50,987 bases of DNA. Origin: Escherichia phage JLBYU10. Position 1 is the first letter of the stretch, and each line of letters starts with the position of its first letter. The notes below the pieces were generated by a model. It was not told the DNA's origin and did not search any database. It was given only the letters and a program-made list of their open reading frames with translations. The stretch lies in sequence record OK272486.1; one strand, written 5' to 3'. A program made the position numbers and the translations under genes. Below are positions 2-50,920 of the stretch, piece by piece.

Positions 2-931
2 TTATAGCAGTGATTCGGGCTTGTAGAGTTTTCTTTCTACGCCCTGTTTAAAATTATCGTTAACAGGCATCATTATGTCAAGCCCTCTTTCCTCTGCCGC
101 GATTATCACATCACGATCATCTTTCCGGCAGACTACGCGCATTCTTCTTTCTCCTTTATATCTATGCGCAACCATTTCAAGATTTGAAGGAGTAAAACAG
201 GCCCACACCTCTTGACCAGTTGATAAATGAACATGCTGAGAATCAACCCAATCAAGGCACAAATAGATCGTCTTATCTGTGCTACCTGTTTTAACAACAG
301 ATCCGCGCGTGTAGTCGCGAGCTAAAAACCAATCCTTTCCATCCTCATCAATGAAAAGCACGTTACACATTTCATCATCCAGCCCGTCATCATGCACCAG
401 GTGACAAGGTAGCGCGTGAATGTATCGACCATCCTTGACGCCGCAATCATAATGACAATCTTCCGGCGGATATATCCCTTCATAAACACTTAAAGGTGTG
501 CGATCGAATTTTAATGTTTTTGCCATCACTTTTTCGCAGCATTCATGACTTGCCTGTTTCCCGAACGAGTAACCAGAAGAACGCGAAGCGCGTTTGTTTG
601 CTCTGATCCTGTAATCCTGCGGCACTTTTCCGAGGAAGCGGCCCAAAATGTTGATGGCCTCGCTGTAAGGTTCGCCAGTTAATTTCATTAACCAACCGAT
701 CCCCGTGTCGTTGCCGCATACGTTGCAGATCGCGCCGCCGTCGCCCTCTTCATTTAGCTTATCAGTCCATCTAAAACGATCCTTACCGCCGCAGTGTGGG
801 CAAGGTTGATGCTTTTTGTTGAAAACATCGCTATGCAGTCCGCAAATGCTTTGTAGTGCTTCACGCCATAACCCCTTCATATATGGCAAAACATCTTCTT
901 TCTGATAGGTCATAAAGTTTTCAGTATTCAT
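2..931 (-). CDS. DNA primase (zinc-ribbon plus TOPRIM-like domain)
   Basis: ORF 2..1009 trimmed to internal Met with GAGG RBS; CPHCGG...CNVCG zinc ribbon; YEG and FIDEDGKD acidic motifs resembling TOPRIM. Confidence 0.55.
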   Translation of the reverse strand: MNTENFMTYQKEDVLPYMKGLWREALQSICGLHSDVFNKKHQPCPHCGGKDRFRWTDKLNEEGDGGAICNVCGNDTGIGWLMKLTGEPYSEAINILGRFLGKVPQDYRIRANKRASRSSGYSFGKQASHECCEKVMAKTLKFDRTPLSVYEGIYPPEDCHYDCGVKDGRYIHALPCHLVHDDGLDDEMCNVLFIDEDGKDWFLARDYTRGSVVKTGSTDKTIYLCLDWVDSQHVHLSTGQEVWACFTPSNLEMVAHRYKGERRMRVVCRKDDRDVIIAAEERGLDIMMPVNDNFKQGVERKLYKPESLL

Positions 932-986
932 GGCAAACCTCAATAAAAAAGCCCAGCAAATATTATCATTTCGCTGAGCCTTATCA

Positions 987-1463
987 TTAGCTATTTGTGC
1001 TGTTATCACCTTTGTAGAATCGTCCGCCTGGTTCGTAGTCTGAATTTTTGACTACGCGCAACATCTCGTATTTGTCGCAACGGGTAGTAAGAGGCTTACC
1101 GTTAGAATCAAACCGCAGATCTGGACGACAAAATGATGCGCGGTATCCTTTGCATCCATTATATTTGTAGTCGTTATGCACCTTTTGTGCTCCAGCGGCT
1201 GAAATCATACCACGCTTTCGCCATTGGTTAACGACTTGCTGAGATACGCGTAGACGTCGAGCCATAGCAGGAACACCGCCATAATACTCGATCAGAATAT
1301 CCAAGCGAGATTTCAGGCTTGCTTTTACCTCATCTCGCAGGATAAGAAATCCGGTTCGGTGTTTTCGTGGCTTTTTGTCTTTACCTCGTCGCGTTCCGTT
1401 GTTACCGTTAATAGTGCGCTTGTCGATCTCACCCGTAGAAACCGCAATTCGTGCATCTTTCAT
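987..1463 (-). CDS. HTH DNA-binding protein (Cro/YdaS-like helix-turn-helix)
   Basis: ORF track; segment GGVPAMARRLRVSQQVVNQWRKRG looks like an HTH; basic N-terminus. Confidence 0.45.
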   Translation of the reverse strand: MKDARIAVSTGEIDKRTINGNNGTRRGKDKKPRKHRTGFLILRDEVKASLKSRLDILIEYYGGVPAMARRLRVSQQVVNQWRKRGMISAAGAQKVHNDYKYNGCKGYRASFCRPDLRFDSNGKPLTTRCDKYEMLRVVKNSDYEPGGRFYKGDNSTNS

Positions 1464-1474
1464 CTAGTCACCTC

Positions 1475-1518
1475 ATAGCATTTTTTGTTAAAACAGTTTA
1501 TTGTAATGAGTCTATTAT
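1475..1518 (+). promoter_or_regulatory. Motif-type promoter-like unit: ATAGCATTTTTTGTTAAAAC, 22-bp spacer, TATTAT
   Basis: Conserved motif copy in divergent intergenic region upstream of helicase gene; -10-like hexamer 22 bp after TTGTTA. Confidence 0.45.
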
Positions 1519-1550
1519 ATACTCCAAATGGCATTTTTTAAAGGTTTAAG

Positions 1551-3548: not shown

Positions 3549-3967
3549 TGGCTATAACTGATAAAGGAGATTATCTTGAGTTTTACGAAAGAGATCCAAC
3601 CGACACGAGAAAGGAAGTTAATCACCAGATAGATAGCTTTCAGTGGTTGACTTATGCTCATCCTTATTTGCTAGCGTGGCATACGGTAAACGAGAATGAG
3701 AAGTCGAAAGTAACGGCGATGATTGATCAGCAGTCCGGCTTGGTTAAGGGGGTAAGCGATTTCATCATCCTGATTGGTTCAAACGGAAAATACCCCTTTG
3801 CAGCGATTGAGATCAAACGAGTGAATAAATCAGGCAAGGGGAAAGCATCACCAGTCAGCGATGAACAAAAGGCTTTTTTGCGTCGCGTTCGCAGCTTAGG
3901 AGGATTCGCTGCGGTCGCCTACGGATTTAATCAGTTTAAGTTAGCTATTGAATACATGCTTAAATAG
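3548..3967 (+). CDS. VRR-NUC domain nuclease
   Basis: ATGA start-stop overlap with helicase; SDFIIL...AIEIKR...DEQKAF...GG.AAVAYG pattern typical of VRR-NUC. Confidence 0.6.
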   Translation: MAITDKGDYLEFYERDPTDTRKEVNHQIDSFQWLTYAHPYLLAWHTVNENEKSKVTAMIDQQSGLVKGVSDFIILIGSNGKYPFAAIEIKRVNKSGKGKASPVSDEQKAFLRRVRSLGGFAAVAYGFNQFKLAIEYMLK

Positions 3968-4007
3968 CACTTTTTGTTAAAACTGGCGCGATGGATTGCG
4001 CCATAAT
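3964..4007 (+). promoter_or_regulatory. Motif-type promoter-like unit: ATAGCACTTTTTGTTAAAAC, hairpin in 22-bp spacer, CATAAT
   Basis: Motif overlaps TAG stop of VRR-NUC gene; GGCGC..GCGCC stem in spacer; -10-like hexamer at fixed distance. Confidence 0.5.
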
Positions 4008-4020
4008 TCAATAACACGAG

Positions 4021-4773
4021 ATGGCTTTTAATAGCGGAGAAATGAAAATGGCTAAAGATATTTTAGATAAAGACACCCATGACGCATTTGTTAGCTTTGA
4101 GCAGTTGGAGAGAGAAACGTTTATAGGAAATGCTCTTGCAACTGGAGGCCATTACCAGGCAGTAAAGCCAAATCAATATTATAAGGTAAGCGGCAACCGA
4201 TACGCTGGAAGCACTACGCCGGACGTTGTGCGCGATATGTGGAGCACACCTCAAGAGATCGTGGAGTGGATGGAATCAGAATTTGGCGAATACGATCTCG
4301 ACGCGGCAGCAAGCCAGGAAAACGCAGTTTGCGAGAAGTTCTATAGCAAGGAAACAAACTGCTTAAAGAGTTGGTGGGGTAGCAACAAGCACGTATGGCT
4401 TAACCCGCCGTACAGCAACCCAACTCCATTTATCAAGAAAGCAATTGAGCAAATGGAGCACAACAACCAAATTGATGTTTTGTTGCCATCCGACAACTCT
4501 ACAGCATGGTTTTATGAGGCGCAGCAAAACGCGGCTGAAATCATCTGGATCACTGGCGAGGTTTACGAAGAGGGGGGAGTGGAATATTCCCGCACCGGAA
4601 GAATCGCCTTTGTGTCTGGATTGACTGGCGAGCCTGTACAGGGCAACAATAAGGGAAGCGTGATTTTTGTCATGCGCAAACTTAAAGAAGGCGAGGAGCA
4701 GAAAACGCGATACGTTAAGATCAGCGATATTTGCCCCTCTGTAAACGAACGCCGCGCGCGCAAACGGAGCTAA
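4021..4773 (+). CDS. DNA N6-adenine methyltransferase (Dam-like, NPPY motif)
   Basis: WLNPPYSNP catalytic motif; alternative start at 4045 has better RBS. Confidence 0.65.
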   Translation: MAFNSGEMKMAKDILDKDTHDAFVSFEQLERETFIGNALATGGHYQAVKPNQYYKVSGNRYAGSTTPDVVRDMWSTPQEIVEWMESEFGEYDLDAAASQENAVCEKFYSKETNCLKSWWGSNKHVWLNPPYSNPTPFIKKAIEQMEHNNQIDVLLPSDNSTAWFYEAQQNAAEIIWITGEVYEEGGVEYSRTGRIAFVSGLTGEPVQGNNKGSVIFVMRKLKEGEEQKTRYVKISDICPSVNERRARKRS

Positions 4774-4777
4774 CACG

Positions 4778-5035
4778 ATGAAAAAAGAGAGAAGCGTTTA
4801 TTTAAATGAAACTGGCGAGTGGTTGTTATTTCGCGCTATGGTGTGCGATGCACTTGATAAAAACCCTAACGTGAAAAAGATGATTGATTGCGATCCGTGG
4901 GAATTTTCAAGCGCATTAGATATGAGCTTTGATGAGACAAGAAAACTCCCTCTTGAAAAATGGCACGAACAAATCAGAAATGATATGCAAGAGTTTGTAG
5001 ATTCGTGGAATTTTCAGAACGGAATGATCCACTAA
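4778..5035 (+). CDS. hypothetical protein
   Basis: ORF track; ACGGAG RBS; tightly packed. Confidence 0.45.
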   Translation: MKKERSVYLNETGEWLLFRAMVCDALDKNPNVKKMIDCDPWEFSSALDMSFDETRKLPLEKWHEQIRNDMQEFVDSWNFQNGMIH

Positions 5036-8488: not shown

Positions 8489-8810
8489 CGCCCATCTCCC
8501 CTATTCTAGCCATATCCCTGATCCAGTCGTTGCGCATACCATCCAGGCTATACAATTCGAATCCGAAAGGCCGCTTTGACGATCCTTTGGACCAGTATTT
8601 TCCGCAGACTCCATCTATATAACCAGCCGTCATCATTCTTGCGCAAAATTCCTTAGATGCAAGGCTGGCGAACATTCGCGGCGTAAGTCCGGCGGCCCGT
8701 GCGAGCCGCTCACATTCTCTATGCTGATAGATAAATTTGGCTATGTGCTGCCTGTTAAACCAGTCGTATGACTCACACCATTTATACAGATCAAGCAAAA
8801 ACATAATCAT
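8415..8810 (-). CDS. hypothetical protein
   Basis: ORF track; ATGA overlap with upstream 526-aa gene. Confidence 0.45.
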   Translation of the reverse strand: MIMFLLDLYKWCESYDWFNRQHIAKFIYQHRECERLARAAGLTPRMFASLASKEFCARMMTAGYIDGVCGKYWSKGSSKRPFGFELYSLDGMRNDWIRDMARIGEMGDDELFQAKANRQDLEALRRKFNLT

Positions 8811-10387
8811 CCCAGCAGTATTGGATTGACAAAAATAACACCATTAATCACACAAACATAATTTCTTTCTTCCAGCATTGGCAGCAAGTGCCCTTCTATC
8901 CTCTTCATTACGCCAGCCTGACCAACGAAAGGTTTTACCTTTCTCGCTGATTCGTACAGGGCGCGAATATTCAGGATTCCTTTGTTCGCCTTGCCGTGCC
9001 TCGTGATCAATTCAATCAATTTACCCATTTCAGCATCATCACCAGCATAACCAGAAGCATTGGCGGCGCTAATGTATGTTTTGCTCAATTCCTGAAACAT
9101 GATCAACGCCTCTTGCATTGTTTCCACGTCGATCTCTTTCGACTTCTGCGGGTATCCGGCAGGATTAAACCAGTTACGGATAACATGCAGGACGGAAGCA
9201 AGCCTGATCACCTGTTTATCCATTTTACCCAGCGCACCGCGTAACATTGTATGAGAATACTTTCCTCCGTCTGCAAGATGCGGTTCCATATCCTGGCGAG
9301 CAATGTTGAGCACTCGCATAGCTGAACGGCTTATTTTCAGCGATATATTTGATTCGCTCATGATGTTATGCACCAATTGATAATATTGGGCTTTCAATTC
9401 AGAATCCACCGCCTCATAGGTAGAATCACCATTTTCATCAATGAATGAGCGACGGCCTAAGAATGATTCCTCTCGGACCAACAAAAAACGCTCACTAACA
9501 CCGATGCCTCGCGATCCAGCGTCCATTATTCCGCTTATCGTTTCATCCTGGGCTATAACGCTCATACATCCAAGCGCGCGAAAACTCATATTATTGTCAG
9601 CATTAGCGCGGGCAATTGATACGTGACCATTATCCCACGCCTTAAGCACTAACTCACTGTTAGTCTTCCTTTCGCTATTTGCATAGGTCAAGCCTAACAG
9701 ACTGTTAATACTTGTTGCTTCATCAGATATTACGGCAAAGTTACCTTGCTTGTTGTTGATTTTCGCCAAGCCTTCTGGAGTTGTATCTGAAACAGGAAAA
9801 GTTATATCACACATTTTTTCCAGCTTTTCCTCCAGATCCTCTTTTTCCTGGTATAGAGATTCCATATCAGCGCCGGATCTTTCGCTTTTCATCTCCTTTG
9901 CAAGACCTGCCAGCTTTGCCTGTATTTTCTTTCTTTCCTTGCGGCGTTGCTCGTTGATCTTCTCAACTTCCGCAATCATCGGAGCAATAGCCATGCTGTT
10001 GATCGCAGATTTACCAGTTGACGGCGGCTGGCTTGTAACGACGTAAAGCGCAGTCGGCTGATCTGTTCCGTGATAGTCAACCGTAAAGCGTCCAAGCATA
10101 GCGGCAGAAATGCAGCCGATAAAGTGCATGTAAGCCGATGATTCAGGGAATTGAACGGATCGCGCAATGCTGCGTGATAACTTGCCGACAACATCAATAT
10201 CATTACCAAGAGAAATAACGGGGTAGCGATCGTGACCGCTATTCACATCCTTTACGTCGCCCCAAAAGCTGGACGACTGGCGATAGCCGTTAGCCTGAAT
10301 TGATACGCGAACTGGCGAAAGGTTCTGGCTTTCAGCCATAGCGATTATTTGCTGTGGAGTTAATTTGTTCGTTTCTAATGAAAACAT
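8807..10387 (-). CDS. large hypothetical protein with P-loop-like motif
   Basis: 526 aa; PPSTGKS Walker-A-like; AAGGAGA RBS; coiled-coil-like KEDLEEKLEK segment. Confidence 0.55.
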   Translation of the reverse strand: MFSLETNKLTPQQIIAMAESQNLSPVRVSIQANGYRQSSSFWGDVKDVNSGHDRYPVISLGNDIDVVGKLSRSIARSVQFPESSAYMHFIGCISAAMLGRFTVDYHGTDQPTALYVVTSQPPSTGKSAINSMAIAPMIAEVEKINEQRRKERKKIQAKLAGLAKEMKSERSGADMESLYQEKEDLEEKLEKMCDITFPVSDTTPEGLAKINNKQGNFAVISDEATSINSLLGLTYANSERKTNSELVLKAWDNGHVSIARANADNNMSFRALGCMSVIAQDETISGIMDAGSRGIGVSERFLLVREESFLGRRSFIDENGDSTYEAVDSELKAQYYQLVHNIMSESNISLKISRSAMRVLNIARQDMEPHLADGGKYSHTMLRGALGKMDKQVIRLASVLHVIRNWFNPAGYPQKSKEIDVETMQEALIMFQELSKTYISAANASGYAGDDAEMGKLIELITRHGKANKGILNIRALYESARKVKPFVGQAGVMKRIEGHLLPMLEERNYVCVINGVIFVNPILLG

Positions 10388-14285: not shown

Positions 14286-14329
14286 AATGTACAGGAATGC
14301 GAGGATTGAGTTTTAACAAAAAGTGCTAT
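14286..14329 (-). promoter_or_regulatory. Motif-type promoter-like unit (minus): ATAGCACTTTTTGTTAAAAC, 22-bp spacer, TACATT, 10-bp inverted repeat CCTCGCATTC/GAATGCGAGG around it
   Basis: Motif adjacent to TAA stop of upstream gene; long stem flanks the -10-like hexamer. Confidence 0.45.
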
Positions 14330-14593
14330 TTAGTCCAGGAATTCGATTTCACGCTCTCCAGTTAACGGATCCACAAGCCAGAATCCGAGCGGTTCGCCGT
14401 GAACACCGCCATAGAATCCAAGCGCCGTCAGATCTTCACCTTTAACAAATACCAGTTTTCCGCTACGGCCTACGTGAGACACGTTAACGATAACCGGAAA
14501 TGTGCGATCCTTAAATGCAGGACGCAGGGCGTAACATCCGTTGTTGAGCAAACGTGCTTTGCGCTTAACTGGAATAGGTGCATTAATTTTCAT
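14330..14593 (-). CDS. hypothetical protein
   Basis: ORF track; AAGGAG RBS. Confidence 0.5.
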   Translation of the reverse strand: MKINAPIPVKRKARLLNNGCYALRPAFKDRTFPVIVNVSHVGRSGKLVFVKGEDLTALGFYGGVHGEPLGFWLVDPLTGEREIEFLD

Positions 14594-14819: not shown

Positions 14820-15029
14820 TCAGATACGCCCATACAGATCACAGACTTCGTTGATAAAACAGCGTTGAGACTCTTTATCGTCACGCTCAAAAATTGCGCG
14901 GCATTCAAACTTAAGATTATGCACGATGACTACAACCATATTTTCAGGCATTGAGCGGTTATAGCGTCGCGCGTCAGTGATTAAAACATCCATACCCATC
15001 TCATGTGCTTTCTTGATCACATCCAACAT
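14820..15029 (-). CDS. hypothetical protein
   Basis: ORF 14820..15053 trimmed to ATG with GGAGAAG RBS. Confidence 0.4.
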   Translation of the reverse strand: MLDVIKKAHEMGMDVLITDARRYNRSMPENMVVVIVHNLKFECRAIFERDDKESQRCFINEVCDLYGRI

Positions 15030-15283
15030 TTTTTCTTCTCCTGCAATAAGCAAACATCATTGATAAAATCAGCACGGCCCTTAATGTTGCTGATGTGGAA
15101 CGTCTTTTCAGCGTACAGGCCATCACCTTCAATCACGATCATTACGCGAGTCGGTTTATTCACGGGCGCACACGAAAAGAGTGGTCGCGCCGGAAGAAAT
15201 TTAGTAGCCACATCCAGGTTAGCCCTGGCGGCCCTGCAAAATGCCTCCGCCAGATCCAAATCATTTTCGGTAATCACCGCCAT
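15017..15283 (-). CDS. hypothetical protein
   Basis: ORF track. Confidence 0.4.
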   Translation of the reverse strand: MAVITENDLDLAEAFCRAARANLDVATKFLPARPLFSCAPVNKPTRVMIVIEGDGLYAEKTFHISNIKGRADFINDVCLLQEKKKCWM

Positions 15284-15555
15284 TACTTCTTGATCTCCTC
15301 ACTGATAAATTTCAGCACCTGACGCAAGAAAACCTCGTTGTTGATAGTCGCTGGCAATTCTTCCTTCACTTCTTGCGGCAGATAGATATTGCCATGCCAG
15401 GTCAAGCAATCGTAGTTGATACGATAAGAGCAAAGCCACTCGCAATCGTTATCTGCTTCCCAAATGCAGAGTTGCAGAACATCGCCAAAATCTTCAACAG
15501 TCAGATCCAGACCGTGACGCTTAGCGAAATTGAAAGTGGTTTTGCTGATGTTCAT
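15283..15555 (-). CDS. hypothetical protein, first gene of leftward block
   Basis: ORF track; CAGGAGATAGC RBS. Confidence 0.5.
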   Translation of the reverse strand: MNISKTTFNFAKRHGLDLTVEDFGDVLQLCIWEADNDCEWLCSYRINYDCLTWHGNIYLPQEVKEELPATINNEVFLRQVLKFISEEIKK

Positions 15556-15589
15556 TGCTATCTCCTGAGCGGTTCGTTTTGATGTGTGT

Positions 15590-15633
15590 AATGTACCCGA
15601 TCAGACGGCCTGAGTTTTAACAAAAAGTGCTAT
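15590..15633 (-). promoter_or_regulatory. Motif-type promoter-like unit (minus): ATAGCACTTTTTGTTAAAAC, 22-bp spacer, TACATT
   Basis: Only motif copy heading the leftward gene block; not preceded by a gene. Confidence 0.5.
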
Positions 15634-15660
15634 TTGACGGTTAGCGCCAGGATTGTGATC

Positions 15661-15752
15661 GAAATAATCAAAAGTAATCATTCGTAATCAAATAACGTCA
15701 AAATGATGATTGCCTTTGCAAACTTGATGAGAAAAGTAATCACGTTTAATCA
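15661..15752. repeat. Phased short direct repeats (TAATCA at 10-bp spacing, then GTAATCA/TTAATCA)
   Basis: Three TAATCA copies exactly one helical turn apart, two more related copies ~50 bp downstream; upstream of leftward promoter. Confidence 0.5.
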
Positions 15753-15899
15753 TTGGTTGCAGGGGAGATAGTGAAACCCTCCCCTCTTGCCTCACTTTTC
15801 CGCCTGGCTGTCAGTGGTTGTTATGTTCCGTTCCCGCCTGTTCTTTTGTTGACCTTCCGCAAAATACGATAACAAAAAATAACAAACAATACCTATATA

Positions 15900-16165
15900 A
15901 TACATTGAAAAATAAGGATTATTTATTTATATGTATCTATATATTCTCTTTTGTTATCTTGGTTATTGTGGTATTTGGTGGGGGTATATAGTTTTTGTGT
16001 ATCTGTATGTGTGTATGGGTATGTAGGGGCATATATATCTATATGGCACTTTCCGCGAGAAAACTTCGATAACAGGCAATGATAACATTGATTTATAAGG
16101 AAAAATAACGCCAATATTGTTATTGTGCCACCATGTAAAATTGATAAAACACGCGGGAACAAGAA
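15900..16165. repeat. TG/TA-rich non-coding element, copy 1 (homologous to 45000..45240)
   Basis: Shares TTATTTATTTAT-TGTAT...CTTTTGTTATCT...TTGTGGT..TTTGGT and GGGAACAAGAAAAA blocks with copy 2. Confidence 0.6.
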
Positions 16166-16172
16166 AAAACAG

Positions 16173-16201
16173 TTGACACATTAAATAGCATTATTGATAA
16201 T
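16173..16201 (+). promoter_or_regulatory. sigma70-type promoter (TTGACA, 17 bp, GATAAT)
   Basis: Canonical hexamers with 17-bp spacer ~30 bp upstream of first rightward early gene. Confidence 0.6.
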
Positions 16202-16230
16202 GCCGACACCTAACAACCAGGAGGTAGAAA

Positions 16231-16695: not shown

Positions 16696-16964
16696 AAAAG
16701 GCGTTAATCGGCGTTTTGGTGGCAATGGCATTCCTGACCGGATGCGAAGAAGATGGCGCGCATGTTGGCAATGTGCAGATGGCTAACCCTGGCGATGACT
16801 ACAGCGTAAGGGAGCTATTCACCGCCGATGGTTGCACTGTTTACCGATTCTATGACGGTCGCACTGTTTACTTCACCAACTGCAAGGGAACGACTAGCTG
16901 GGAAGTGTCGAAAAGCAACGGCAAAGGCACGAAAACAGAATACATGACCGTTGAGACAAAATAG
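16692..16964 (+). CDS. lipoprotein (possible superinfection-exclusion type)
   Basis: Signal peptide with lipobox FLTGC; ATGA overlap with upstream gene. Confidence 0.5.
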   Translation: MKKALIGVLVAMAFLTGCEEDGAHVGNVQMANPGDDYSVRELFTADGCTVYRFYDGRTVYFTNCKGTTSWEVSKSNGKGTKTEYMTVETK

Positions 16965-17003
16965 CACTTTTTGTTAAAACTCAAATGTGGGGCCAGGTAT
17001 AAT
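16961..17003 (+). promoter_or_regulatory. Motif-type promoter-like unit: ATAGCACTTTTTGTTAAAAC, hairpin GGGCC..GGCCC, TATAAT
   Basis: Motif overlaps TAG stop of lipoprotein gene; TATAAT in hairpin loop 21 bp after TTGTTA. Confidence 0.5.
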
Positions 17004-20696: not shown

Positions 20697-20987
20697 ATGG
20701 CAAACAAAACTTACCGCAAACTACTGGTTAACGCTTTTGAAAACATCGCGCAGTGTAACAAGTGGAACGACTCTAAACACTCGCCAGTCACAATGAAGCG
20801 CGCCGGATTCAAAAATGCTCGTTCATGGGCGCGAGCTTTCGCAGCTTGCTATATGCCGGATGGCGGACTAGGGGCGATGAACGATTTTTTGATCAATATG
20901 ATAGAGGAAGCGGCGCGAGAGGATCGACCGCTGACACAGCGAGATTTTGACGACTTCGCGCGCGATGAGCTTTACTATCTGAGCTAA
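20697..20987 (+). CDS. hypothetical protein
   Basis: ORF track. Confidence 0.45.
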   Translation: MANKTYRKLLVNAFENIAQCNKWNDSKHSPVTMKRAGFKNARSWARAFAACYMPDGGLGAMNDFLINMIEEAAREDRPLTQRDFDDFARDELYYLS

Positions 20988-21030
20988 TAGCACTTTTTGT
21001 TAAAACTTCCGCAAGGGCATTTGGTAAAGT
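20987..21030 (+). promoter_or_regulatory. Motif-type promoter-like unit: ATAGCACTTTTTGTTAAAAC, hairpin AAGGGCA..TGCCCTT, TAAAGT
   Basis: Motif abuts TAA stop; -10-like hexamer inside hairpin, 22-bp spacer. Confidence 0.45.
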
Positions 21031-23641: not shown

Positions 23642-25209
23642 TGATCATATGGGAAGATTTGACGGCGGCGCAAAAGCGAGCCATTAAAGAAATCAGTGAG
23701 CATTCATTCGAAAAGATGATCAGAATCTGGTTCCAATTATTGCAGGGGCAAAAATTCCAGAGCAACTGGCATTTTAGCTTATTGTGCAGTGAGGTAGAGA
23801 AGATCATCAATGGAGAGTCGCAGAATGTGATTTTCAACATTACGCCAGGTAGCGGCAAGACTGAGATTTTCTCGATCCACATGTCACCCTACGCGTCATT
23901 GAAAAGCCGGAAAGTGAGAAACCTTAACCTTTCGTTTAGTGATGGCCTTGTCCAGCAAAACAGCAACCGGATAAAGGAGATTATTGGTTCTCCTGAGTGG
24001 CAAGAGCTATGGCCTGGAAAACTGGCAAAGGCGAGCGCTAAAGATCTGATAGTCACCGAAGGCGGCAAGGTTAAATTGCAGGTTAACTCACGTTCTATTG
24101 GCGGCCAGGTAACAGGTTTGCGTGGCGGCTATATGGATGATGGTTTTACTGGTATGCTGGTTCTTGACGATCCAGACAAGCCGTATGATATGCTTTCTAA
24201 GGTCAAGCGCGAGGCTATTCACATGCGGTTAAAAAACACAGTGCGATCGCGTCGAATGAAAGACACCACGCCGATTGTTATGGTGCAACAGCGACTACAC
24301 GTTAATGATTCCACCTGGTTCATGCTTAATGGCGGAATGGGTGGTATTGAGTTTAAAGTCGTGAGCATTCCGGCGCTGGTTACGAAAGAATACCGCGAAA
24401 CGCTTCCTGATTGGTTGAAGCCTGAATTTGATCGTGATGTGCTGTCAAGTAAGCCAGTGATGATAGATGGCGTTGCTCATTATTCATTTTGGCCTGCGAA
24501 GGAAAGCGCGGAGGAATTGCTTGCATTGCGCAATGCAGATCCTTATACGTTCGCCAGTCAGTACCAACAGCAGCCAATCGCGCTGGGCGGGAACGTGTTT
24601 AAAACAGAGTGGTTCCAGTATTACGGCAGCGGCGAAAAATGCGCACTTCCTAAACCGGATCGCTTTGAATACACATTTATCACTGGAGATACCGCACAGA
24701 AGGCCGGAGAGCTTAACGACTATTCGGTTTTTTGTTATTGGGGGATGTATAAGAATCGCGTTTACTTCATTGATGGCATTCGCGGAAAGTGGGAAGCGCC
24801 GGATCTTGAATTAAATTTTATTGCCTTCGTTAACCAGTGCTGGAAGCGCAATAAGGAGTGTGGCAGCTTGCGACGTATCCACATTGAGGATAAGGCCAGC
24901 GGCACGGGTTTGATTCAGGGGGCCAAAAAGAAGATCCCGATTGATATAAATCCCGTTCAGCGAAGCAATGACAAGGTGACGCGAGCAATGGACGCCGCGC
25001 CAGTAATGAGGGCCGGACGTGTGGCACTGCCAGAAAATCACCCCATGCTGCCTGAGATACTGGCAGAGGTTGCAGCATTCACTTTTGATGATTCTCATCC
25101 CCATGATGATATTGTCGATAATATAGTTGATGCTGTTAACGTCGAAATGAACTTGGCAGATGATCCGGTGGCAAGGATGAAAAAGCTGGCTGGTCTACGC
25201 AATAAATAG
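23641..25209 (+). CDS. terminase large subunit
   Basis: 522 aa; Walker A-like PGSGKTE, Walker B-like LVLDDPD; position before portal. Confidence 0.75.
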   Translation: MIIWEDLTAAQKRAIKEISEHSFEKMIRIWFQLLQGQKFQSNWHFSLLCSEVEKIINGESQNVIFNITPGSGKTEIFSIHMSPYASLKSRKVRNLNLSFSDGLVQQNSNRIKEIIGSPEWQELWPGKLAKASAKDLIVTEGGKVKLQVNSRSIGGQVTGLRGGYMDDGFTGMLVLDDPDKPYDMLSKVKREAIHMRLKNTVRSRRMKDTTPIVMVQQRLHVNDSTWFMLNGGMGGIEFKVVSIPALVTKEYRETLPDWLKPEFDRDVLSSKPVMIDGVAHYSFWPAKESAEELLALRNADPYTFASQYQQQPIALGGNVFKTEWFQYYGSGEKCALPKPDRFEYTFITGDTAQKAGELNDYSVFCYWGMYKNRVYFIDGIRGKWEAPDLELNFIAFVNQCWKRNKECGSLRRIHIEDKASGTGLIQGAKKKIPIDINPVQRSNDKVTRAMDAAPVMRAGRVALPENHPMLPEILAEVAAFTFDDSHPHDDIVDNIVDAVNVEMNLADDPVARMKKLAGLRNK

Positions 25210-44841: not shown

Positions 44842-44872
44842 CTTCAATACCCCTTAGTTGTTGTTGGCTGTA

Positions 44873-44915
44873 ACTATACACGATCCGGCAAGCCGAGTTT
44901 AGCAAAAAGTGCTAC
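44873..44915 (-). promoter_or_regulatory. Motif-type promoter-like unit (minus): GTAGCACTTTTTGCTAAAC, 21-bp spacer, TATAGT
   Basis: Reverse-complement motif heading leftward lipoprotein/receptor-binding operon. Confidence 0.5.
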
Positions 44916-44999
44916 TTGTTATTTTTTGTTTTCCGGTGCTATCGGATTTAAGACGGCGTAAATTTAGCGCAAATTTTAGCCAACATAAGAACAATAAAT

Positions 45000-45240
45000 A
45001 ATCAATAAAATATGTATATACATATAAAATCAATAGTTTATTTATTTATGTATGTGTATTTGTTTTTTTCTTGTTATCTGTGTTTCTTGTGGTTTTGGTT
45101 GTTTGTGGTGATTTTTCTTTCTGAGTATCTGTATGTGCCATCATTCATGTGTATGTATATAATCCGGCGTATCTGAGAGAACAAGGGAACAAGAAAAATA
45201 ACACATATTAATCATTAACTTACGCGTCAAATTTGTTTTA
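45000..45240. repeat. TG/TA-rich non-coding element, copy 2 (homologous to 15900..16165)
   Basis: Shares TTTATTTATTTATGTATGTGTATTTGT...CTTGTTATCTGTGTTTCTTGTGGTTTTGGT and GGGAACAAGAAAAA blocks with copy 1. Confidence 0.6.
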
Positions 45241-45285
45241 TTGCCATCTGAGAACGCTTAGAAAACAGAAAAAACAAAACAACTA

Positions 45286-45313
45286 TTGACTAAATCAATC
45301 AAATGGCTACAAT
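45286..45313 (+). promoter_or_regulatory. sigma70-type promoter (TTGACT, 16 bp, TACAAT)
   Basis: Near-canonical hexamers ~30 bp upstream of exonuclease gene. Confidence 0.55.
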
Positions 45314-45343
45314 GCACACACAAAGCAACGAGGAGCATTAAAG

Positions 45344-48627: not shown

Positions 48628-48906
48628 TTAAGCCCATTCTCTAATCGGCTGATCTAACTCAACCACGTAGCCGTTAAAAATTACGGCATCAAACTTATCA
48701 TCAATGATTCGCACATTGACGAAATAGCCGTCGTTCTTTCGCGCAATCTCATCGCCATCGTCAGATCGTGCAATTACTGTGTAAGTATTGCCGATTACAT
48801 CGAGCAGGATTGCATCCTGAATGGATTCGTTTTCGTTCCATTCAATTTCTTCCAGAAAGGCGGAAAACTCCGCCTTGTCTAAAAATTTCAGTGTTAAATC
48901 ACGCAT
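48628..48906 (-). CDS. hypothetical protein (tail-fibre accessory?)
   Basis: ORF 48628..48951 trimmed to ATG overlapping stop of tail-fibre gene. Confidence 0.4.
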   Translation of the reverse strand: MRDLTLKFLDKAEFSAFLEEIEWNENESIQDAILLDVIGNTYTVIARSDDGDEIARKNDGYFVNVRIIDDKFDAVIFNGYVVELDQPIREWA

Positions 48907-50882
48907 TATACAATTTCCCCCAATTGATGATCTGTTAGTGCCTTGTGCCATATACGGAAGTTTCTAACGTGCCCGAAAAGATGGCGTTCGCCCGTAGTTG
49001 TTTGTCCGCCAATCCTTATAGTAGCCGTTGATTTTATGTATCTCCATTCCGTTTTTGTTTCGCTTGATATTCTGGCATTACTTACACAGCAATTATTGTA
49101 ATCACTCTTTACTCTCATTCCCATGATCATCTTTTTTAGTTTTGCATTCTCGTAAACCCTTCTTTTTGATCCACCTATATCGCAATAAGGGAATCCATCA
49201 TTATCTCCCTCGGCAGATCCGAAAGCAAGAATAATTGCCGCACCAGATTGATGACCTACAGTATCAAAAACACGAGGCGCAGCATTTGGCGTTATACTCC
49301 AGTTTTTATTAGCTTCCACAAGAACTGTAAACGGCAAATTGTAAAGGTTGTTTTTTATTGGCACTGTAACCATATCGCTTGCCCTTGTTACTGGATTTTC
49401 TTCTGTAATTATGAAAGAAGAGGCACAAGATCCTCCCTCAACTTGTGGAGTTGCAATATAAATGTAATCATCCGCGCCAGTGCCCACTCCTTTTGCCGGG
49501 GCATACTGAACCATTCCACCTATCATATTTTCTGTATCAAGTGCCTTAATTGTCGCCTCAAAAAAGATCCATTTGCTTGCTTCATCTTTAACAGCCCTTG
49601 CAGTAATACGATTTGCAGCGACGCCAGTTTTTTCAATTGATAAATCTGTCAGATTTACGTAAGCATCACCCAAAAATGCATAAGCAGATCCATCGTAGTT
49701 TTCAAATCGTAATCGGCATCTTAAATTTGGAGTCCCACTTTGCGCCCTGCATGATATGGTTACATACTTTTCATTTCCTGTTACATCAAAACCTCTACTG
49801 CCGGAAACGGTTACTATGTTAATCTCTGAAATTTGCCCTACCATTTCTGGTTTTAATGTAAATTTTGCGTACTGGAATCCGAAATTATCCACACCTGATC
49901 TATCTAAGATCATATTTGATGACTTGTTCCATTTTGAAGGATTGACGCTATTTATAAGAAGGTTTGTTCTTTGCCCCTCAATGAGCAGACCATCCTTTTC
50001 AAATCTAGGTTCATCAATAGCAGCATTAGTAAGCACCCCAGACTTATTAATGTAAGTAGCGGTTGATGCGCGTTTAAACTTAACAATCTTGTCACCTGGC
50101 ATCGTGATCTCATCGTCACCTATAACAATCTTTTTATATGACGGAGAGAATCCGGTGATCATATCCAGGGAATCATTAAACGGTATCCACACGTCCGGCA
50201 ACGGTTGCAATAAATCTTTGTAAGGTTCTGCGGCCTGCTTTGCGTATTCCTCCGCTTGATCTCGCGCACTTTCAGCTCCTGCCTTTGCAGTGTTCGCAGC
50301 GTCACGCGCGGATTCAGCGCCTTTTCTTGCAGTTTCAGCGCCAGTCTTTGCAGTGTTTGCAGCGTCGCGCGCGGATTCAGCGGCAGCCTTTGCAGTGTCA
50401 GCACCTTTCTTGCTATTCTCTGCATTTGTTGCGCTTGTCTTTGCGTTATTCTCGCTAGTTTTAGCTGCCTTCTGGCTTGCTGCGGCTGCGTCAGCATTTG
50501 TCTTTACGTCTTCCTGGATCTTCTGTAGCTTATCCCAATCAAAATCCTTGATGATCTCAATAAATCCAGCAAGCTCCGACTCCTTTCCCTGGTAATAACG
50601 CAACGTTTCCGCTACGTCTTGCGCAAGACCGTCAACCGTTAACGAGTCATGAAGCAAGATCAGGTAATTTGTCTTCTGGACTACCGCGCCGCCAGTAGTA
50701 ATTGCGCGAATGCTTGTATCGCTAATCACTTCCGTAATCACAGCAGCTTGCAAAGGTTGAGCAAGAAAGAAAATAGTTGCACCTGGGCGAATCAAGGTTA
50801 ATTGCTCACGCCATTTTGTACCGTAACCAGTTACATAACCTTGCGCGTCCATAGACGCTTGGCCTTGTCTGTAAATCGCCAT
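48906..50882 (-). CDS. side tail fibre protein
   Basis: ORF 48906..50906 trimmed to ATG with AGGAGGA RBS; Ala-rich repeats AAESARDAANTAKTGAETARKGAESARDAANTAKAGAESARD typical of fibre shafts. Confidence 0.55.
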   Translation of the reverse strand: MAIYRQGQASMDAQGYVTGYGTKWREQLTLIRPGATIFFLAQPLQAAVITEVISDTSIRAITTGGAVVQKTNYLILLHDSLTVDGLAQDVAETLRYYQGKESELAGFIEIIKDFDWDKLQKIQEDVKTNADAAAASQKAAKTSENNAKTSATNAENSKKGADTAKAAAESARDAANTAKTGAETARKGAESARDAANTAKAGAESARDQAEEYAKQAAEPYKDLLQPLPDVWIPFNDSLDMITGFSPSYKKIVIGDDEITMPGDKIVKFKRASTATYINKSGVLTNAAIDEPRFEKDGLLIEGQRTNLLINSVNPSKWNKSSNMILDRSGVDNFGFQYAKFTLKPEMVGQISEINIVTVSGSRGFDVTGNEKYVTISCRAQSGTPNLRCRLRFENYDGSAYAFLGDAYVNLTDLSIEKTGVAANRITARAVKDEASKWIFFEATIKALDTENMIGGMVQYAPAKGVGTGADDYIYIATPQVEGGSCASSFIITEENPVTRASDMVTVPIKNNLYNLPFTVLVEANKNWSITPNAAPRVFDTVGHQSGAAIILAFGSAEGDNDGFPYCDIGGSKRRVYENAKLKKMIMGMRVKSDYNNCCVSNARISSETKTEWRYIKSTATIRIGGQTTTGERHLFGHVRNFRIWHKALTDHQLGEIV

Positions 50883-50899
50883 TTGTAAAATCCTCCTAA

Positions 50900-50920
50900 A
50901 TAGCACTTTTTGCTAATGAC
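50900..50920 (+). repeat. motif copy (ATAGCACTTTTTGCTAATGAC) upstream of, and inverted relative to, the tail-fibre gene
   Basis: No -10 at canonical spacing on plus strand; adjacent to RBS of minus-strand gene. Confidence 0.4.

What the first reader, a model, noticed from the sequence alone, without database searches (positions are those of the whole stretch)
15900..16230. Two homologous TG/TA-rich regulatory elements head the two rightward early operons
The 0.6-kb gap at 15.6-16.2 kb and the 0.5-kb gap at 44.9-45.3 kb share an alignable ~150-250 bp core (TTATTTATTTAT-TGTAT..., CTTTTGTTATCT..., TTGTGGT...TTTGGT, GTATCTGTATGTG, GGGAACAAGAAAAA) in the same orientation. Each ends in a near-consensus sigma70 promoter (TTGACA-17-GATAAT at 16173-16201; TTGACT-16-TACAAT at 45286-45313) driving the first genes of rightward blocks, and each has a motif-type promoter firing leftward on its other side. 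They look like duplicated early control regions with upstream curved or TG-repeat DNA (UP-element, enhancer or replication origin). Their direct-repeat arrangement 29 kb apart could also mediate rearrangement.
Basis: seen in the sequence. Interest (0 to 1): 0.7.

Follow-up and report, generated by a model that had tools for sequence, protein, structure and literature searches.

The report
Twin origin-like elements, T1-like phage
This T1-like coliphage carries two related non-coding elements of about 450 bp, each an easily melted AT-rich core flanked by short oppositely oriented repeats and followed by an early promoter; the pair is conserved across the phage family and is the best current candidate for its unmapped replication origins.

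Summary
Window 15860-16011 and 44981-45137 align at 73% identity, with score 86 against 30±5.5 for composition-matched shuffles.

The window is a complete Warwickvirus (Drexlerviridae) genome. A profile built only from copies upstream of recE finds the other copy in the window, TLS, T1 and about 25 further genomes. There is one copy of each type per genome, always in the same orientation.

Each element holds the least stable duplex stretch of its genome, and the window B copy has a perfect IHF consensus. Short GNNAACA-type repeats flank the core about 20-fold above background and point in opposite directions on the two sides. Other genera keep the architecture but use different repeats: GTAAGAT in Webervirus, TTACGGAGGAT in another lineage.

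The phage encodes an MCM-like helicase with a fast-evolving C-terminal winged helix and a P4-alpha-type primase.

My best reading (about 0.45) is a pair of iteron-plus-unwinding-element origins coupled to the early promoters, similar to SaPI ori and SPP1 oriL/oriR. The main rival (about 0.3) is a purely transcriptional upstream control region.

Intrinsic curvature, an UP-element role for the core, a structured RNA and repeat-mediated rearrangement are not supported.

The parts
15607..15634 (-). Leftward 21-nt-motif promoter-like site (reverse complement of AATAGCACTTTTTGTTAAAA) heading the leftward operon, which includes the MCM-like helicase
   Evidence: Repeat families D1-D3. The same motif is described in phage TLS as an 18-copy intergenic repeat of unknown function (PMC11447400).
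15664..15752 (.). Array of five TAATCA repeats spaced 10-11 bp, present in region A only. Probably the packaging (pac / small-terminase) site; not part of the shared element.
   Evidence: TAATCA at 15665, 15675, 15685, 15737 and 15747. The window 15651-15810 ranks among the six most curved in the genome (z -4.4). The T1 and TLS records start in the equivalent gap, among TGATT repeats.
15824..15850 (-). Left outer repeats of copy A (TGTTCC, GTTCCC, TGTTCT, which are GNNAACA-type repeats in minus orientation)
   Evidence: Across 69 unique elements, minus-oriented repeats occur at 0.41-0.64 per 40 nt here, against a background of 0.03.
15857..16089 (+). Copy A of the shared element, as matched by a profile built only from B copies
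   Evidence: nhmmer E = 7.9e-13, model positions 6-236.
15861..16010 (.). AT-rich core of copy A. It ranks first or second genome-wide for lowest duplex stability (candidate DNA unwinding element). Composition flips from A-rich to T-rich near 15915.
   Evidence: Nearest-neighbour dG z = 4.3-4.6. Also the lowest C content of any 120-nt window.
15868..15958 (.). Inner inverted pair of copy A: GATAACA (15868, +) and TGTTATC (15952, -), bracketing the TA-rich centre
16068..16087 (+). Right tandem repeats of copy A (GATAACA at 16068 and 16081)
   Evidence: Plus-oriented repeats occur at 0.72 per element at this model position, against a background of 0.03.
16155..16168 (+). GGGAACAAGAAAAA box directly upstream of the -35 hexamer; identical in copy B
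   Evidence: Exactly two copies in the genome.
16173..16201 (+). Sigma-70 promoter (TTGACA-17-GATAAT) for the rightward early block
   Evidence: Equivalent to P01 of TLS.
44889..44916 (-). Leftward 21-nt-motif promoter-like site of region B
44917..44935 (-). Left outer repeats of copy B (TGTTATT, TGTTTTC)
44971..45214 (+). Copy B of the shared element
   Evidence: nhmmer E = 1.5e-38. Conserved upstream of recE in all 43 loci recovered.
44984..45133 (.). AT-rich core of copy B. It ranks first or second genome-wide for lowest duplex stability.
   Evidence: z = 4.2-4.8.
45028..45040 (+). Perfect IHF consensus (AATCAATAGTTTA) at the centre of core B
   Evidence: One of five matches in the genome. 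The family-wide consensus of both A and B copies has AAAATCAATnGTTTA at this position.
45177..45198 (+). Right tandem repeats of copy B (GAGAACAAGGGAACAAGAAAAA)
45210..45222 (+). Second IHF-like site (AATCATTAACTTA; one mismatch here, a perfect AATCAATAACTTA in several relatives), lying between the repeats and the promoter
45286..45313 (+). Sigma-70 promoter (TTGACT-16-TACAAT) for recE-erf-ssb
   Evidence: At least 90% of columns are conserved across the family. Equivalent to P51 of TLS.
8807..10387 (-). DUF3987 helicase, predicted MCM-like AAA+ fold with a C-terminal winged helix. Candidate reader of the repeats and self-loading initiator.
   Evidence: Pfam. AlphaFold pLDDT 88 with H-E-H-H-E-E topology at residues 449-519. 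The top Foldseek hits are MCM2-7 subunits. The winged helix is its least conserved domain.
2..1009 (-). Primase homologous to the primase domain of P4 alpha
   Evidence: BLASTP E = 7e-17 over P4 alpha residues 19-262. Matches Zn_Ribbon_Prim.

Best explanation
Each element is a site where a nucleoprotein complex assembles on DNA, of the 'iterons around an unwinding element' type. I propose the two copies are the phage's replication origins, or an origin plus a cis-acting partner as in P4 ori/crr, physically coupled to the early promoters.

Proposed mechanism:
1. A phage protein binds the short GNNAACA-type repeats that sit in opposite orientation on the two sides of the core. The best candidate is the MCM-like helicase, acting through its C-terminal winged helix.
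2. IHF bends the centre of the core.
3. Divergent early transcription, from the leftward 21-nt-motif promoter and the rightward sigma-70 promoter, adds negative supercoiling.
4. The AT-rich core, the weakest duplex in the genome, melts.
5. The helicase loads itself, the P4-alpha-type primase primes, and host Pol III elongates.

What is shown: homology of the two copies, family-wide conservation in pairs, duplex instability, oriented repeat enrichment, replacement of the repeats between genera, and the predicted fold of the helicase.

What is inferred: who binds the repeats, that melting and helicase loading happen there, and that replication starts there.
For: 1. The two cores are the two least stable duplex segments of the genome in the window (z 4.2-4.8, next best 3.5). 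The same holds in T1, TLS and the Webervirus TSK1 (z 4.6-5.9).

2. Across 69 unique copies, GNNAACA-type repeats are about 20-fold enriched at fixed positions and are orientation-specific. They are minus-oriented on the left flank (0.41-0.64 per 40 nt) and plus-oriented on the right flank (0.72), with an inner inverted pair; background is 0.03.

3. The repeats are lineage-specific and shared by A and B within a genome:
- T1: TGTAACA/TGTTACA, 6 of 6 genome copies lie in the two gaps.
- TLS: GTGAACA, 4 of 8.
- TSK1: GTAAGAT/ATCTTAC, 13 of 16.
- Another lineage: CGGAGGA, 7 of 11 in a 700-bp segment of that 20.8-kb locus.

4. The copies evolve in concert. The TSK1 A and B cores are about 85% identical to each other, yet neither is detected by the Tempevirinae profile.

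5. The genome encodes a helicase with an MCM-like fold and a C-terminal winged helix. Against TSK1, that domain is 40% identical while the AAA+ core is 70% identical. Against TLS, which uses the same repeat class, the figures are 67% and 83%.

6. Its putative recognition helix is nearly the same in the window and TSK1 although their repeats differ completely.

7. The architecture matches SaPI origins as described in PMC9371898: the winged helix of a self-loading Rep helicase reads 5-6-nt iterons, half on each side of a central AT-rich region, pointing in opposite directions.

8. SPP1 has two similarly organised origins made of direct repeats plus an AT-rich unwinding element (PMC6316719). P4, whose primase is homologous, needs two iteron-bearing elements, ori and crr.

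9. Published analyses of T1-like phages report finding no origin (PMC11447400; PMC7718038).

10. The outgroup phage DS8, which has the same helicase/primase set, has a single extreme AT core (z 5.7) next to its helicase operon.
Against: - There is no experimental evidence here: no binding data, no marker-frequency data and no origin mapping.
- In Tempevirinae the repeats are short and degenerate, with only AACA invariant. In the window itself the enrichment is modest: GATAACA 5 of 16, GGGAAC 3 of 13.
- A contig with a 100% identical helicase carries different GNNAACA variants in its A copy. The variable repeat positions are therefore not tightly tied to the helicase.
- In the examples counted by eye from the printed sequences, the right-hand repeats lie roughly 90-100 bp from the -35 hexamer, with an IHF-like site between them. 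The element also moves together with the promoter and operon in Webervirus. Both features are equally typical of transcription control.
- In T1 region A the repeats overlap the region just downstream of the -35 hexamer, like operators.
- In Drexlerviridae the elements are not adjacent to the helicase gene.
- The winged-helix correlation rests on a few lineages and is weak for T1 (49% versus 62%).
Confidence: 0.45

Rival explanations
1. The elements are purely transcriptional control regions. In this reading they are upstream activating or operator regions of the two strongest early promoters. A phage or host factor would bind the repeats, and IHF would loop the DNA or transmit supercoil-induced destabilisation from the AT-rich region to the promoter, as described for ilvPG (from memory). 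Alternatively, the repeats could serve to shut the early promoters off later in infection.
For: - Both copies end in the sigma-70 promoters, which in TLS are two of only three predicted intergenic sigma-70 promoters.
- In the examples counted by eye, the tandem right-hand repeats lie roughly 90-100 bp from the -35 hexamer, with an IHF-like site between them, in both A and B copies of several lineages.
- An A-rich AACAGAAAAAACA stretch abuts the -35 hexamer.
- In T1 region A the GTGTAACAC/GTGTTACA repeats lie just downstream of the -35 hexamer, like operators.
- In Webervirus the element, promoter and recE operon are inverted together.
- In JK16 the element, promoter and a small gene are tandemly duplicated together.
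Against: - The AT/TG core lies about 130-370 bp upstream of the -35 hexamer, well outside UP-element range, and is not predicted to be curved.
- The one annotated regulator has a nearly unchanged recognition helix between lineages whose repeats differ entirely.
- In one lineage the rightward promoter next to the element is of the 21-nt-motif type rather than sigma-70 consensus.
- The third early promoter, at about 1514-1541, has no such element.
- A transcriptional role does not by itself explain why these are the two most meltable sites in four genomes.
- This reading is compatible with, rather than exclusive of, the origin reading.
Confidence: 0.3
2. The shared element is the packaging recognition site (pac), that is, the small-terminase binding region.
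For: - The T1 record (terminal repeat annotated at 1-2800) and the TLS record both begin inside the region-A gap.
- The TLS pac site was mapped there by restriction analysis.
- Cos and pac sites of other phages combine bent DNA, IHF sites and terminase-binding repeats (from memory).
Against: - The T1 and TLS record starts lie about 190-230 bp left of the shared core, within TGATT/TAATCA repeats that region B lacks.
- The predicted curvature sits in that array, not in the shared core.
- TLS shows a single submolar pac fragment, not two packaging series.
- Copy B is conserved just as strongly although it has no such array.
Confidence: 0.07
3. The two copies are functionless relics: a duplicated stretch of AT-rich spacer, a remnant of a mobile element, or a chance low-complexity resemblance.
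For: The sequence is of low complexity, and short flanking inverted repeats recall miniature transposable elements.
Against: - The alignment score exceeds every one of the composition-matched shuffles.
- The profile search is significant across genera.
- Position, orientation and module order are kept in phages with only about 60% protein identity.
- There are no copies in 5,426 E. coli genomes or 72,556 plasmids.
- The copies evolve in concert.
Confidence: 0.03
4. The C-free strand encodes a small regulatory RNA or another structured RNA.
For: There is strong strand asymmetry (only 5-6 C in 120 nt), and a -10-like TATAAT lies inside core B.
Against: - Folding z-scores are unremarkable: -1.9, -1.4, +1.45 and -0.4.
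- There is no Rfam match above threshold.
- The composition reverses at the centre, giving a dyad, which fits a double-stranded DNA site rather than a transcript.
Confidence: 0.03

Closest known systems
SaPI replication origins with self-loading Rep helicase-initiators (Staphylococcus aureus pathogenicity islands; PMC9371898)
   Same: - A central AT-rich region with short repeats on both sides pointing in opposite directions.
- The repeats differ between lineages.
- The same genome encodes a helicase with a C-terminal winged helix and a separate primase.
- One SaPI Rep class (Rep2) is MCM-like (SF6), as is the predicted fold here.
   Different: - There are two copies per genome, 29 kb apart.
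- The elements are not adjacent to the helicase gene.
- The elements are much longer (about 250 bp of core plus a T/G-rich arm) and include IHF-type sites.
- Each is fused to a strong early promoter.
- Binding by the helicase is untested.
Bacillus phage SPP1 oriL and oriR (PMC6316719)
   Same: - A pac-type siphovirus of about 45-50 kb with two similarly organised origins.
- Each origin has direct repeats plus an AT-rich unwinding element.
- AT-rich islands are the strongest compositional anomalies in the genome.
   Different: - The SPP1 initiator gp38 is a separate origin-binding protein working with a loader (gp39) and a DnaB-type helicase (gp40).
- oriL lies inside gene 38.
- There is no sequence similarity to the elements here.
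Satellite phage P4 ori and crr, bound by the alpha protein
   Same: - Two separated cis elements carry the same short iterons.
- The primase here is homologous to the alpha primase domain (E = 7e-17).
- The P4 iteron TGTTCACC resembles the GTGAACA repeats of the TLS lineage.
   Different: - P4 alpha is one protein combining primase, an SF3 (D5-type) helicase and a winged helix. Here the primase and an MCM-like helicase are separate proteins, with no detectable helicase homology.
- The window's own repeats (GATAACA, GGGAACA) do not match the P4 octamer.
- crr has no promoter-linked AT core.
IHF-dependent upstream activating regions of sigma-70 promoters (for example ilvPG; recalled from memory)
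   Same: An AT-rich, supercoil-sensitive region with an IHF site upstream of a sigma-70 promoter.
   Different: - These elements extend to about -370.
- They carry oriented, lineage-specific repeats on both sides.
- They occur as a co-evolving pair.
The 21-nt intergenic repeats of TLS and T1-like phages (PMC11447400)
   Same: They occur in the same gaps, on the leftward side of both regions.
   Different: They are a separate, already described motif with about 20 copies per genome, and are not part of the shared A/B element.

Membership tests
Iteron-flanked unwinding-element origin of a self-loading helicase-initiator (SaPI type) | A central AT-rich region that melts easily | tested here: met
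   The two cores are the two least stable duplex segments in the window, T1, TLS and TSK1.
Iteron-flanked unwinding-element origin of a self-loading helicase-initiator (SaPI type) | [quoted passage not shown] | tested here: met
   Across 69 unique copies: minus orientation on the left flank (0.41-0.64 per 40 nt), plus orientation on the right flank (0.72), background 0.03. Window coordinates are given.
Iteron-flanked unwinding-element origin of a self-loading helicase-initiator (SaPI type) | The same genome encodes a helicase with a C-terminal winged-helix domain | tested here: met
   This rests on a predicted structure only. pLDDT is 88, the fold is MCM-like, and residues 449-519 have H-E-H-H-E-E topology.
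Iteron-flanked unwinding-element origin of a self-loading helicase-initiator (SaPI type) | Repeat sequence co-varies with the initiator's DNA-binding domain | tested here: inconclusive
   The winged helix is the least conserved domain, and most diverged where the repeats differ (40% versus 70% for TSK1). However, the effect is weak for T1, and identical helicases occur with different GNNAACA variants.
Iteron-flanked unwinding-element origin of a self-loading helicase-initiator (SaPI type) | The origin lies next to the initiator gene | tested here: not met
   Copy A is about 5.5 kb from the helicase gene, although it heads that gene's operon. Copy B is about 14 kb away around the circular map. 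The outgroup DS8 does have its AT core beside the helicase operon.
Iteron-flanked unwinding-element origin of a self-loading helicase-initiator (SaPI type) | The initiator binds and melts the site, and replication starts there | not testable with these tools
   This needs binding assays, marker-frequency analysis or plasmid replication assays.
P4 ori/crr system | Type I iteron TGTTCACC present in both elements | tested here: not met
   The window has GATAACA, GGGAACA and GAGAACA. Only the TLS lineage has GTGAACA.
P4 ori/crr system | An alpha-type protein combining primase, SF3 helicase and winged helix | tested here: not met
   Only the primase domain is homologous. The helicase shows no similarity to alpha and is predicted to be MCM-like.
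UP element or curved upstream DNA of a sigma-70 promoter | An A/T-rich element at about -40 to -60 | tested here: not met
   The shared core lies about 130-370 bp upstream of the -35 hexamers. A separate A-rich stretch does abut the -35, but it is not the TG/TA core.
UP element or curved upstream DNA of a sigma-70 promoter | Intrinsic curvature | tested here: not met
   Wedge-model end-to-end ratio gives z between -0.2 and +0.5 for both cores. The parameters were recalled from memory, so this is a ranking only.
pac site | Coincides with the packaging start, and is a single site per genome | tested here: not met
   The T1 and TLS records start 190-230 bp left of the core, in a repeat array that region B lacks. 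The element is present twice per genome.
Structured non-coding RNA | A stable or conserved secondary structure, or a match to a known family | tested here: not met

The most novel reading that the evidence does not exclude
Drexlerviridae, including the classical phage T1, replicate from a co-evolving pair of promoter-coupled origins. Each origin would be fired by a self-loading MCM-like helicase that reads short repeats through its winged helix. The repeat 'code' would have been replaced several times across genera (GNNAACA, GTGTAACA, GTAAGAT, TTACGGAGGAT), while the two copies within a genome are kept matched. This would be a bacterial-virus counterpart of SaPI and P4 replicons, with a two-site requirement.
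Probability: 0.35. Interest if true: 0.7.

Novelty: new member of a known kind. Interest (0 to 1): 0.55.

Why it matters
T1 is one of the founding model phages. Drexlerviridae are among the most commonly isolated coliphages and Klebsiella phages, and include therapy candidates and fermentation contaminants. Even so, the papers I could read state that no replication origin has been found (PMC11447400, PMC7718038).

This work gives two precise, family-wide candidate sites, a candidate initiator, and a simple architecture that can be tested directly. If confirmed, it would:
- define the replicon for engineering these phages;
- explain why these two gaps are conserved and act as boundaries of mosaic exchange;
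- provide a natural series of switched repeat/winged-helix specificities for studying how initiators and origins co-evolve.

If the elements turn out to be only promoter control regions, they would still define the early regulatory switch of the family.

Tried and rejected
- **Chance low-complexity similarity.** Rejected by dinucleotide and block shuffles and by the cross-genus profile search.
- **Structured RNA.** Rfam with gathering and E-value thresholds found nothing meaningful, and folding z-scores are unremarkable.
- **Intrinsic curvature of the core.** Not supported. Curvature maps to the neighbouring TAATCA array instead.
- **Host or plasmid origin, or a mobile element.** No hits in the plasmid or E. 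coli genome collections.
- **The P4 iteron lead.** I confirmed from the P4 record that the type I iteron is TGTTCACC. It matches only the TLS-lineage repeats, and the helicase is not alpha-like, so membership in that system is rejected.
- **The Cro-like regulator (987-1463) as reader of the repeats.** Disfavoured, because its recognition helix is conserved between lineages with unrelated repeats.
- **Sequence search of the helicase against solved structures.** Nothing found.
- **IHF consensus count in the window alone.** Not enriched: 5 matches against 4 expected. Only the conserved position of the site is informative.
- **Cumulative GC skew.** It follows gene orientation and cannot locate an origin.
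- **Literature.** Two searches returned nothing relevant.
- **Similarity of the DS8 core to the TSK1 core.** Only borderline: 35 bp, z about 5-6, with the shuffle maximum reaching 34-42. I do not rely on it.
- **Concerted evolution among closely related Tempevirinae.** Not resolvable. It is clear only at the level of genera (T1, TSK1).
Full report
**What the window is.** The 50,987-bp window is a complete genome of a T1-like siphovirus. It is collinear with Shigella phage JK16 (Drexlerviridae, Tempevirinae, Warwickvirus), and the two gaps examined match JK16, tiwna, atuna and others at about 93-99% identity. The map runs as follows: primase, Cro-like regulator, SNF2-type helicase, lysis genes, then a leftward block that includes a DUF3987 helicase. 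Region A follows (15556-16230). After it come small rightward early genes, terminase, and head and tail genes. Region B (about 44843-45343) precedes recE-erf-ssb.

**Checking the observation.**
- The best local alignment of the two gaps is 15860-16011 against 44981-45137: 121 matches in 165 columns, score 86.
- Dinucleotide shuffles give 23±2.8 (max 37). Shuffles within 30-nt blocks, which preserve the local AT/TG richness, give 30±5.5 (max 52).
- The two sigma-70 promoters and the two leftward motif sites are as described.

**Family-wide conservation.**
- I collected 43 loci anchored on recE, 27 on the large terminase and 36 on the helicase, plus the full genomes of T1, TLS, JK16, TSK1 and DS8.
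- A profile built only from the copies upstream of recE finds the region-A copy in the window (E = 8e-13, nearly full length), TLS (9e-14), T1 (4e-5) and about 25 other contigs.
- There is always one A and one B copy per genome, in the orientation of the terminase and recE genes. JK16 has A duplicated in tandem.
- A distant blastn search of the phage collection found 171 places in 108 records.
- The consensus sequences of A and B share the same ordered modules:
  1. left-flank TGTTNNC repeats and a CCGGCG(T)AAA box;
  2. an A-rich stretch;
  3. TATAATA;
  4. AAAATCAATnGTTTA, which fits the IHF consensus and is perfect at 45028-45040;
  5. TTTATTTATATATATCTATTTG;
  6. TTTTGTTNTC;
  7. a variable T/G-rich arm of about 80 bp;
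  8. TATATAT;
  9. a second CCGGCG-AAAT box;
  10. two tandem GNNAACA repeats;
  11. a second IHF-like site;
  12. about 70 bp further on, an A-rich stretch abutting the -35 hexamer.

**Physical properties.**
- With nearest-neighbour energies, the two cores are the two least stable duplex segments of the genome at 60-, 100- and 150-bp scales (z 4.2-4.8, third place 3.3-3.5). They are also the two most C-poor 120-nt windows.
- The same ranking holds in T1, TLS and TSK1.
- Composition flips from A-rich to T-rich at the centre, which gives a partial dyad. The profile also hits itself on the opposite strand.
- A wedge-model calculation (parameters from memory, used for ranking only) does not predict curvature for the cores (z about 0). 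It does predict curvature for 15651-15810, the phased TAATCA array in region A (z -4.4).

**The flanking repeats.**
- Across 69 unique copies, GNNAACA-type heptamers are about 20-fold above background at fixed positions and are orientation-specific. They are minus-oriented on the left flank and plus-oriented on the right flank, with an inner inverted pair around the TA-rich centre.
- The repeat sequence is lineage-specific and is shared by A and B within a genome:

| Lineage | Repeat | Copies in the two gaps |
|---|---|---|
| T1 | TGTAACA/TGTTACA | 6 of 6 in genome |
| TLS | GTGAACA; TGGAACA | 4 of 8; 4 of 11 |
| Window | GATAACA; GGGAAC | 5 of 16; 3 of 13 |
| Webervirus TSK1 | GTAAGAT/ATCTTAC | 13 of 16 |
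| Another lineage (L107) | TTACGGAGGAT (core CGGAGGA) | 7 of 11 in the 20.8-kb locus fall in 700 bp |

- In TSK1 the A and B cores are about 85% identical to each other, yet the Tempevirinae profile does not detect them. The two copies therefore evolve in concert, which implies a common trans-acting partner, gene conversion between the copies, or both.

**Candidate trans-acting factors.**
- The 526-aa DUF3987 protein (8807-10387, minus strand) models with high confidence (pLDDT 88). Its best structural matches are MCM2-7 subunits. Its C-terminus (residues 449-519) has the H-E-H-H-E-E topology of a winged helix.
- That domain is the least conserved part of the protein, most clearly against lineages that use other repeats. 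Winged helix versus AAA+ core identity is 40% versus 70% for TSK1 and 54% versus 76% for L107. Against lineages of the same repeat class it is 67% versus 83% (TLS) and 67% versus 78%.
- The Cro/YdaS-like regulator (987-1463) keeps almost the same putative recognition helix in the window and TSK1, although their repeats are unrelated.
- The primase is homologous to the primase domain of P4 alpha (E = 7e-17).

**Comparison with known systems.**
- *SaPI origins.* As described in PMC9371898, they are read by the C-terminal winged helix of a self-loading Rep helicase. They have 6-12 short iterons, half on each side of a central AT-rich region and pointing in opposite directions. One Rep class is MCM-like. 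This is the closest architectural match.
- *SPP1.* It has two similarly organised origins, each with repeats and an AT-rich unwinding element (PMC6316719).
- *P4.* It needs two iteron-bearing elements. Its iteron TGTTCACC, confirmed from the P4 record, resembles the TLS-lineage GTGAACA but not the window's repeats. The helicase here is not alpha-like.
- *T1-like literature.* Two papers on T1-like phages say no origin could be found. The TLS paper lists only three predicted intergenic sigma-70 promoters, two of which are the A and B promoters, and describes the 21-nt repeats. I found no description of the paired element.

**Weighing the readings.**
- For the origin reading: extreme meltability, oriented repeats on both sides, replacement of the repeats across genera while the two copies stay matched, the presence of a suitable helicase-initiator, and placement between divergent promoters. 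From general knowledge of twin-domain supercoiling, that placement should concentrate negative supercoils in the gap.
- The outgroup phage DS8 has the same replication genes and one extreme AT core beside its helicase operon. Its sequence similarity to the Drexlerviridae cores is only borderline.
- Against the origin reading, or equally for a transcriptional role: the right-hand repeats lie roughly 90-100 bp from the -35 hexamer in the examples I counted by eye, with an IHF-like site between them. The element travels with its promoter and operon in Webervirus and in the JK16 duplication. The T1 repeats lie just downstream of the -35 hexamer, like operators. Identical helicases occur with different GNNAACA variants.
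- The two roles are not exclusive. I put about 0.45 on origin function, possibly together with promoter control, and about 0.3 on promoter control only.
- A packaging role for the shared core is unlikely. The T1 and TLS records start about 200 bp to its left, in a TGATT/TAATCA array that is absent from region B. TLS shows a single pac fragment.
- A structured RNA, a chance resemblance and a mobile-element relic are rejected.

**Verdict.** The 'curved DNA, UP element or TG enhancer' reading of the core is not supported, nor is rearrangement between the copies. The 'replication origin' option is the best supported, but it remains untested. If confirmed, the element would be a new member of the known class of origins built from iterons and an unwinding element, in a classical phage family whose origin is unmapped.

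Noticed in passing
window, about 20 sites, e.g. 3961-3982, 16958-16979, 20984-21005 (+); 15607-15634, 14303-14330, 44889-44916 (-): A 21-nt motif, AATAGCACTTTTTGTTAAAAC, lies upstream of genes and in their orientation, followed about 20 nt later by a -10-like hexamer. It is the motif reported in TLS as 18 intergenic repeats of unknown function (PMC11447400). It probably marks middle or late promoters that need a phage factor.
   Followed up: partly
window 15664-15752: Five TAATCA repeats spaced 10-11 bp occur in region A only. Their surroundings are predicted to be among the six most curved segments of the genome. The T1 and TLS records begin in the equivalent stretch, among TGATT repeats, so this is probably the pac / small-terminase site.
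   Followed up: partly
window about 15842-15857; In 45 of 60 related records, high-identity matches to region A stop at query position 283 (window 15842), the left edge of the shared element. Among otherwise near-identical phages, the element is a boundary of mosaic exchange.
   Followed up: partly
L002 (JK16) 14895-15115 and 15480-15700: JK16 carries two tandem copies of the A element 585 bp apart, with a small extra gene (15269-15475) between them.
   Followed up: no
L111 (Klebsiella phage TSK1) 31280-32830: In Webervirus the recE-erf-ssb module is inverted together with its upstream element and promoter. Copy B therefore lies between recE and the 3' end of the primase gene.
   Followed up: partly
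L107 about 4200-4900 (reverse strand): One lineage (helicase 72% identical) has TTACGGAGGAT repeats around its AT core. Its rightward promoter is of the 21-nt-motif type instead of a sigma-70 consensus.
   Followed up: partly
L045 9810-10244 (Shigella phage 2019SD1): Copy B is split by an insertion of about 158 bp, between model positions about 204 and 177-247.
   Followed up: no
window 8807-10387 (-): The DUF3987 'DNA helicase' is predicted with high confidence to have an MCM-like AAA+ fold plus a C-terminal winged helix. Relatives occur in 923 phage records, including Klebsiella, Salmonella, Vibrio and Citrobacter phages.
   Followed up: partly
window 50266-50391: Two tandem 63-nt copies (81% identical) lie inside the large minus-strand ORF (48906-50906) annotated as a tail protein in JK16.
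   Followed up: no
L112 (Shigella phage DS8) about 24150-24330: This phage is outside the family but has the same helicase, primase and recombination genes. It has a single extreme AT-rich core (z 5.7) flanked by GGGTTAA-type repeats, in the divergent gap next to its helicase operon.
   Followed up: partly
window 1514-1541 (-): A third early-type promoter (TTAAAA-16-TATAAT) lies upstream of the Cro-like regulator, in an 88-bp gap shared with a 21-nt motif for the SNF2-type helicase. It matches P57 of TLS and has no AT-core element.
   Followed up: no
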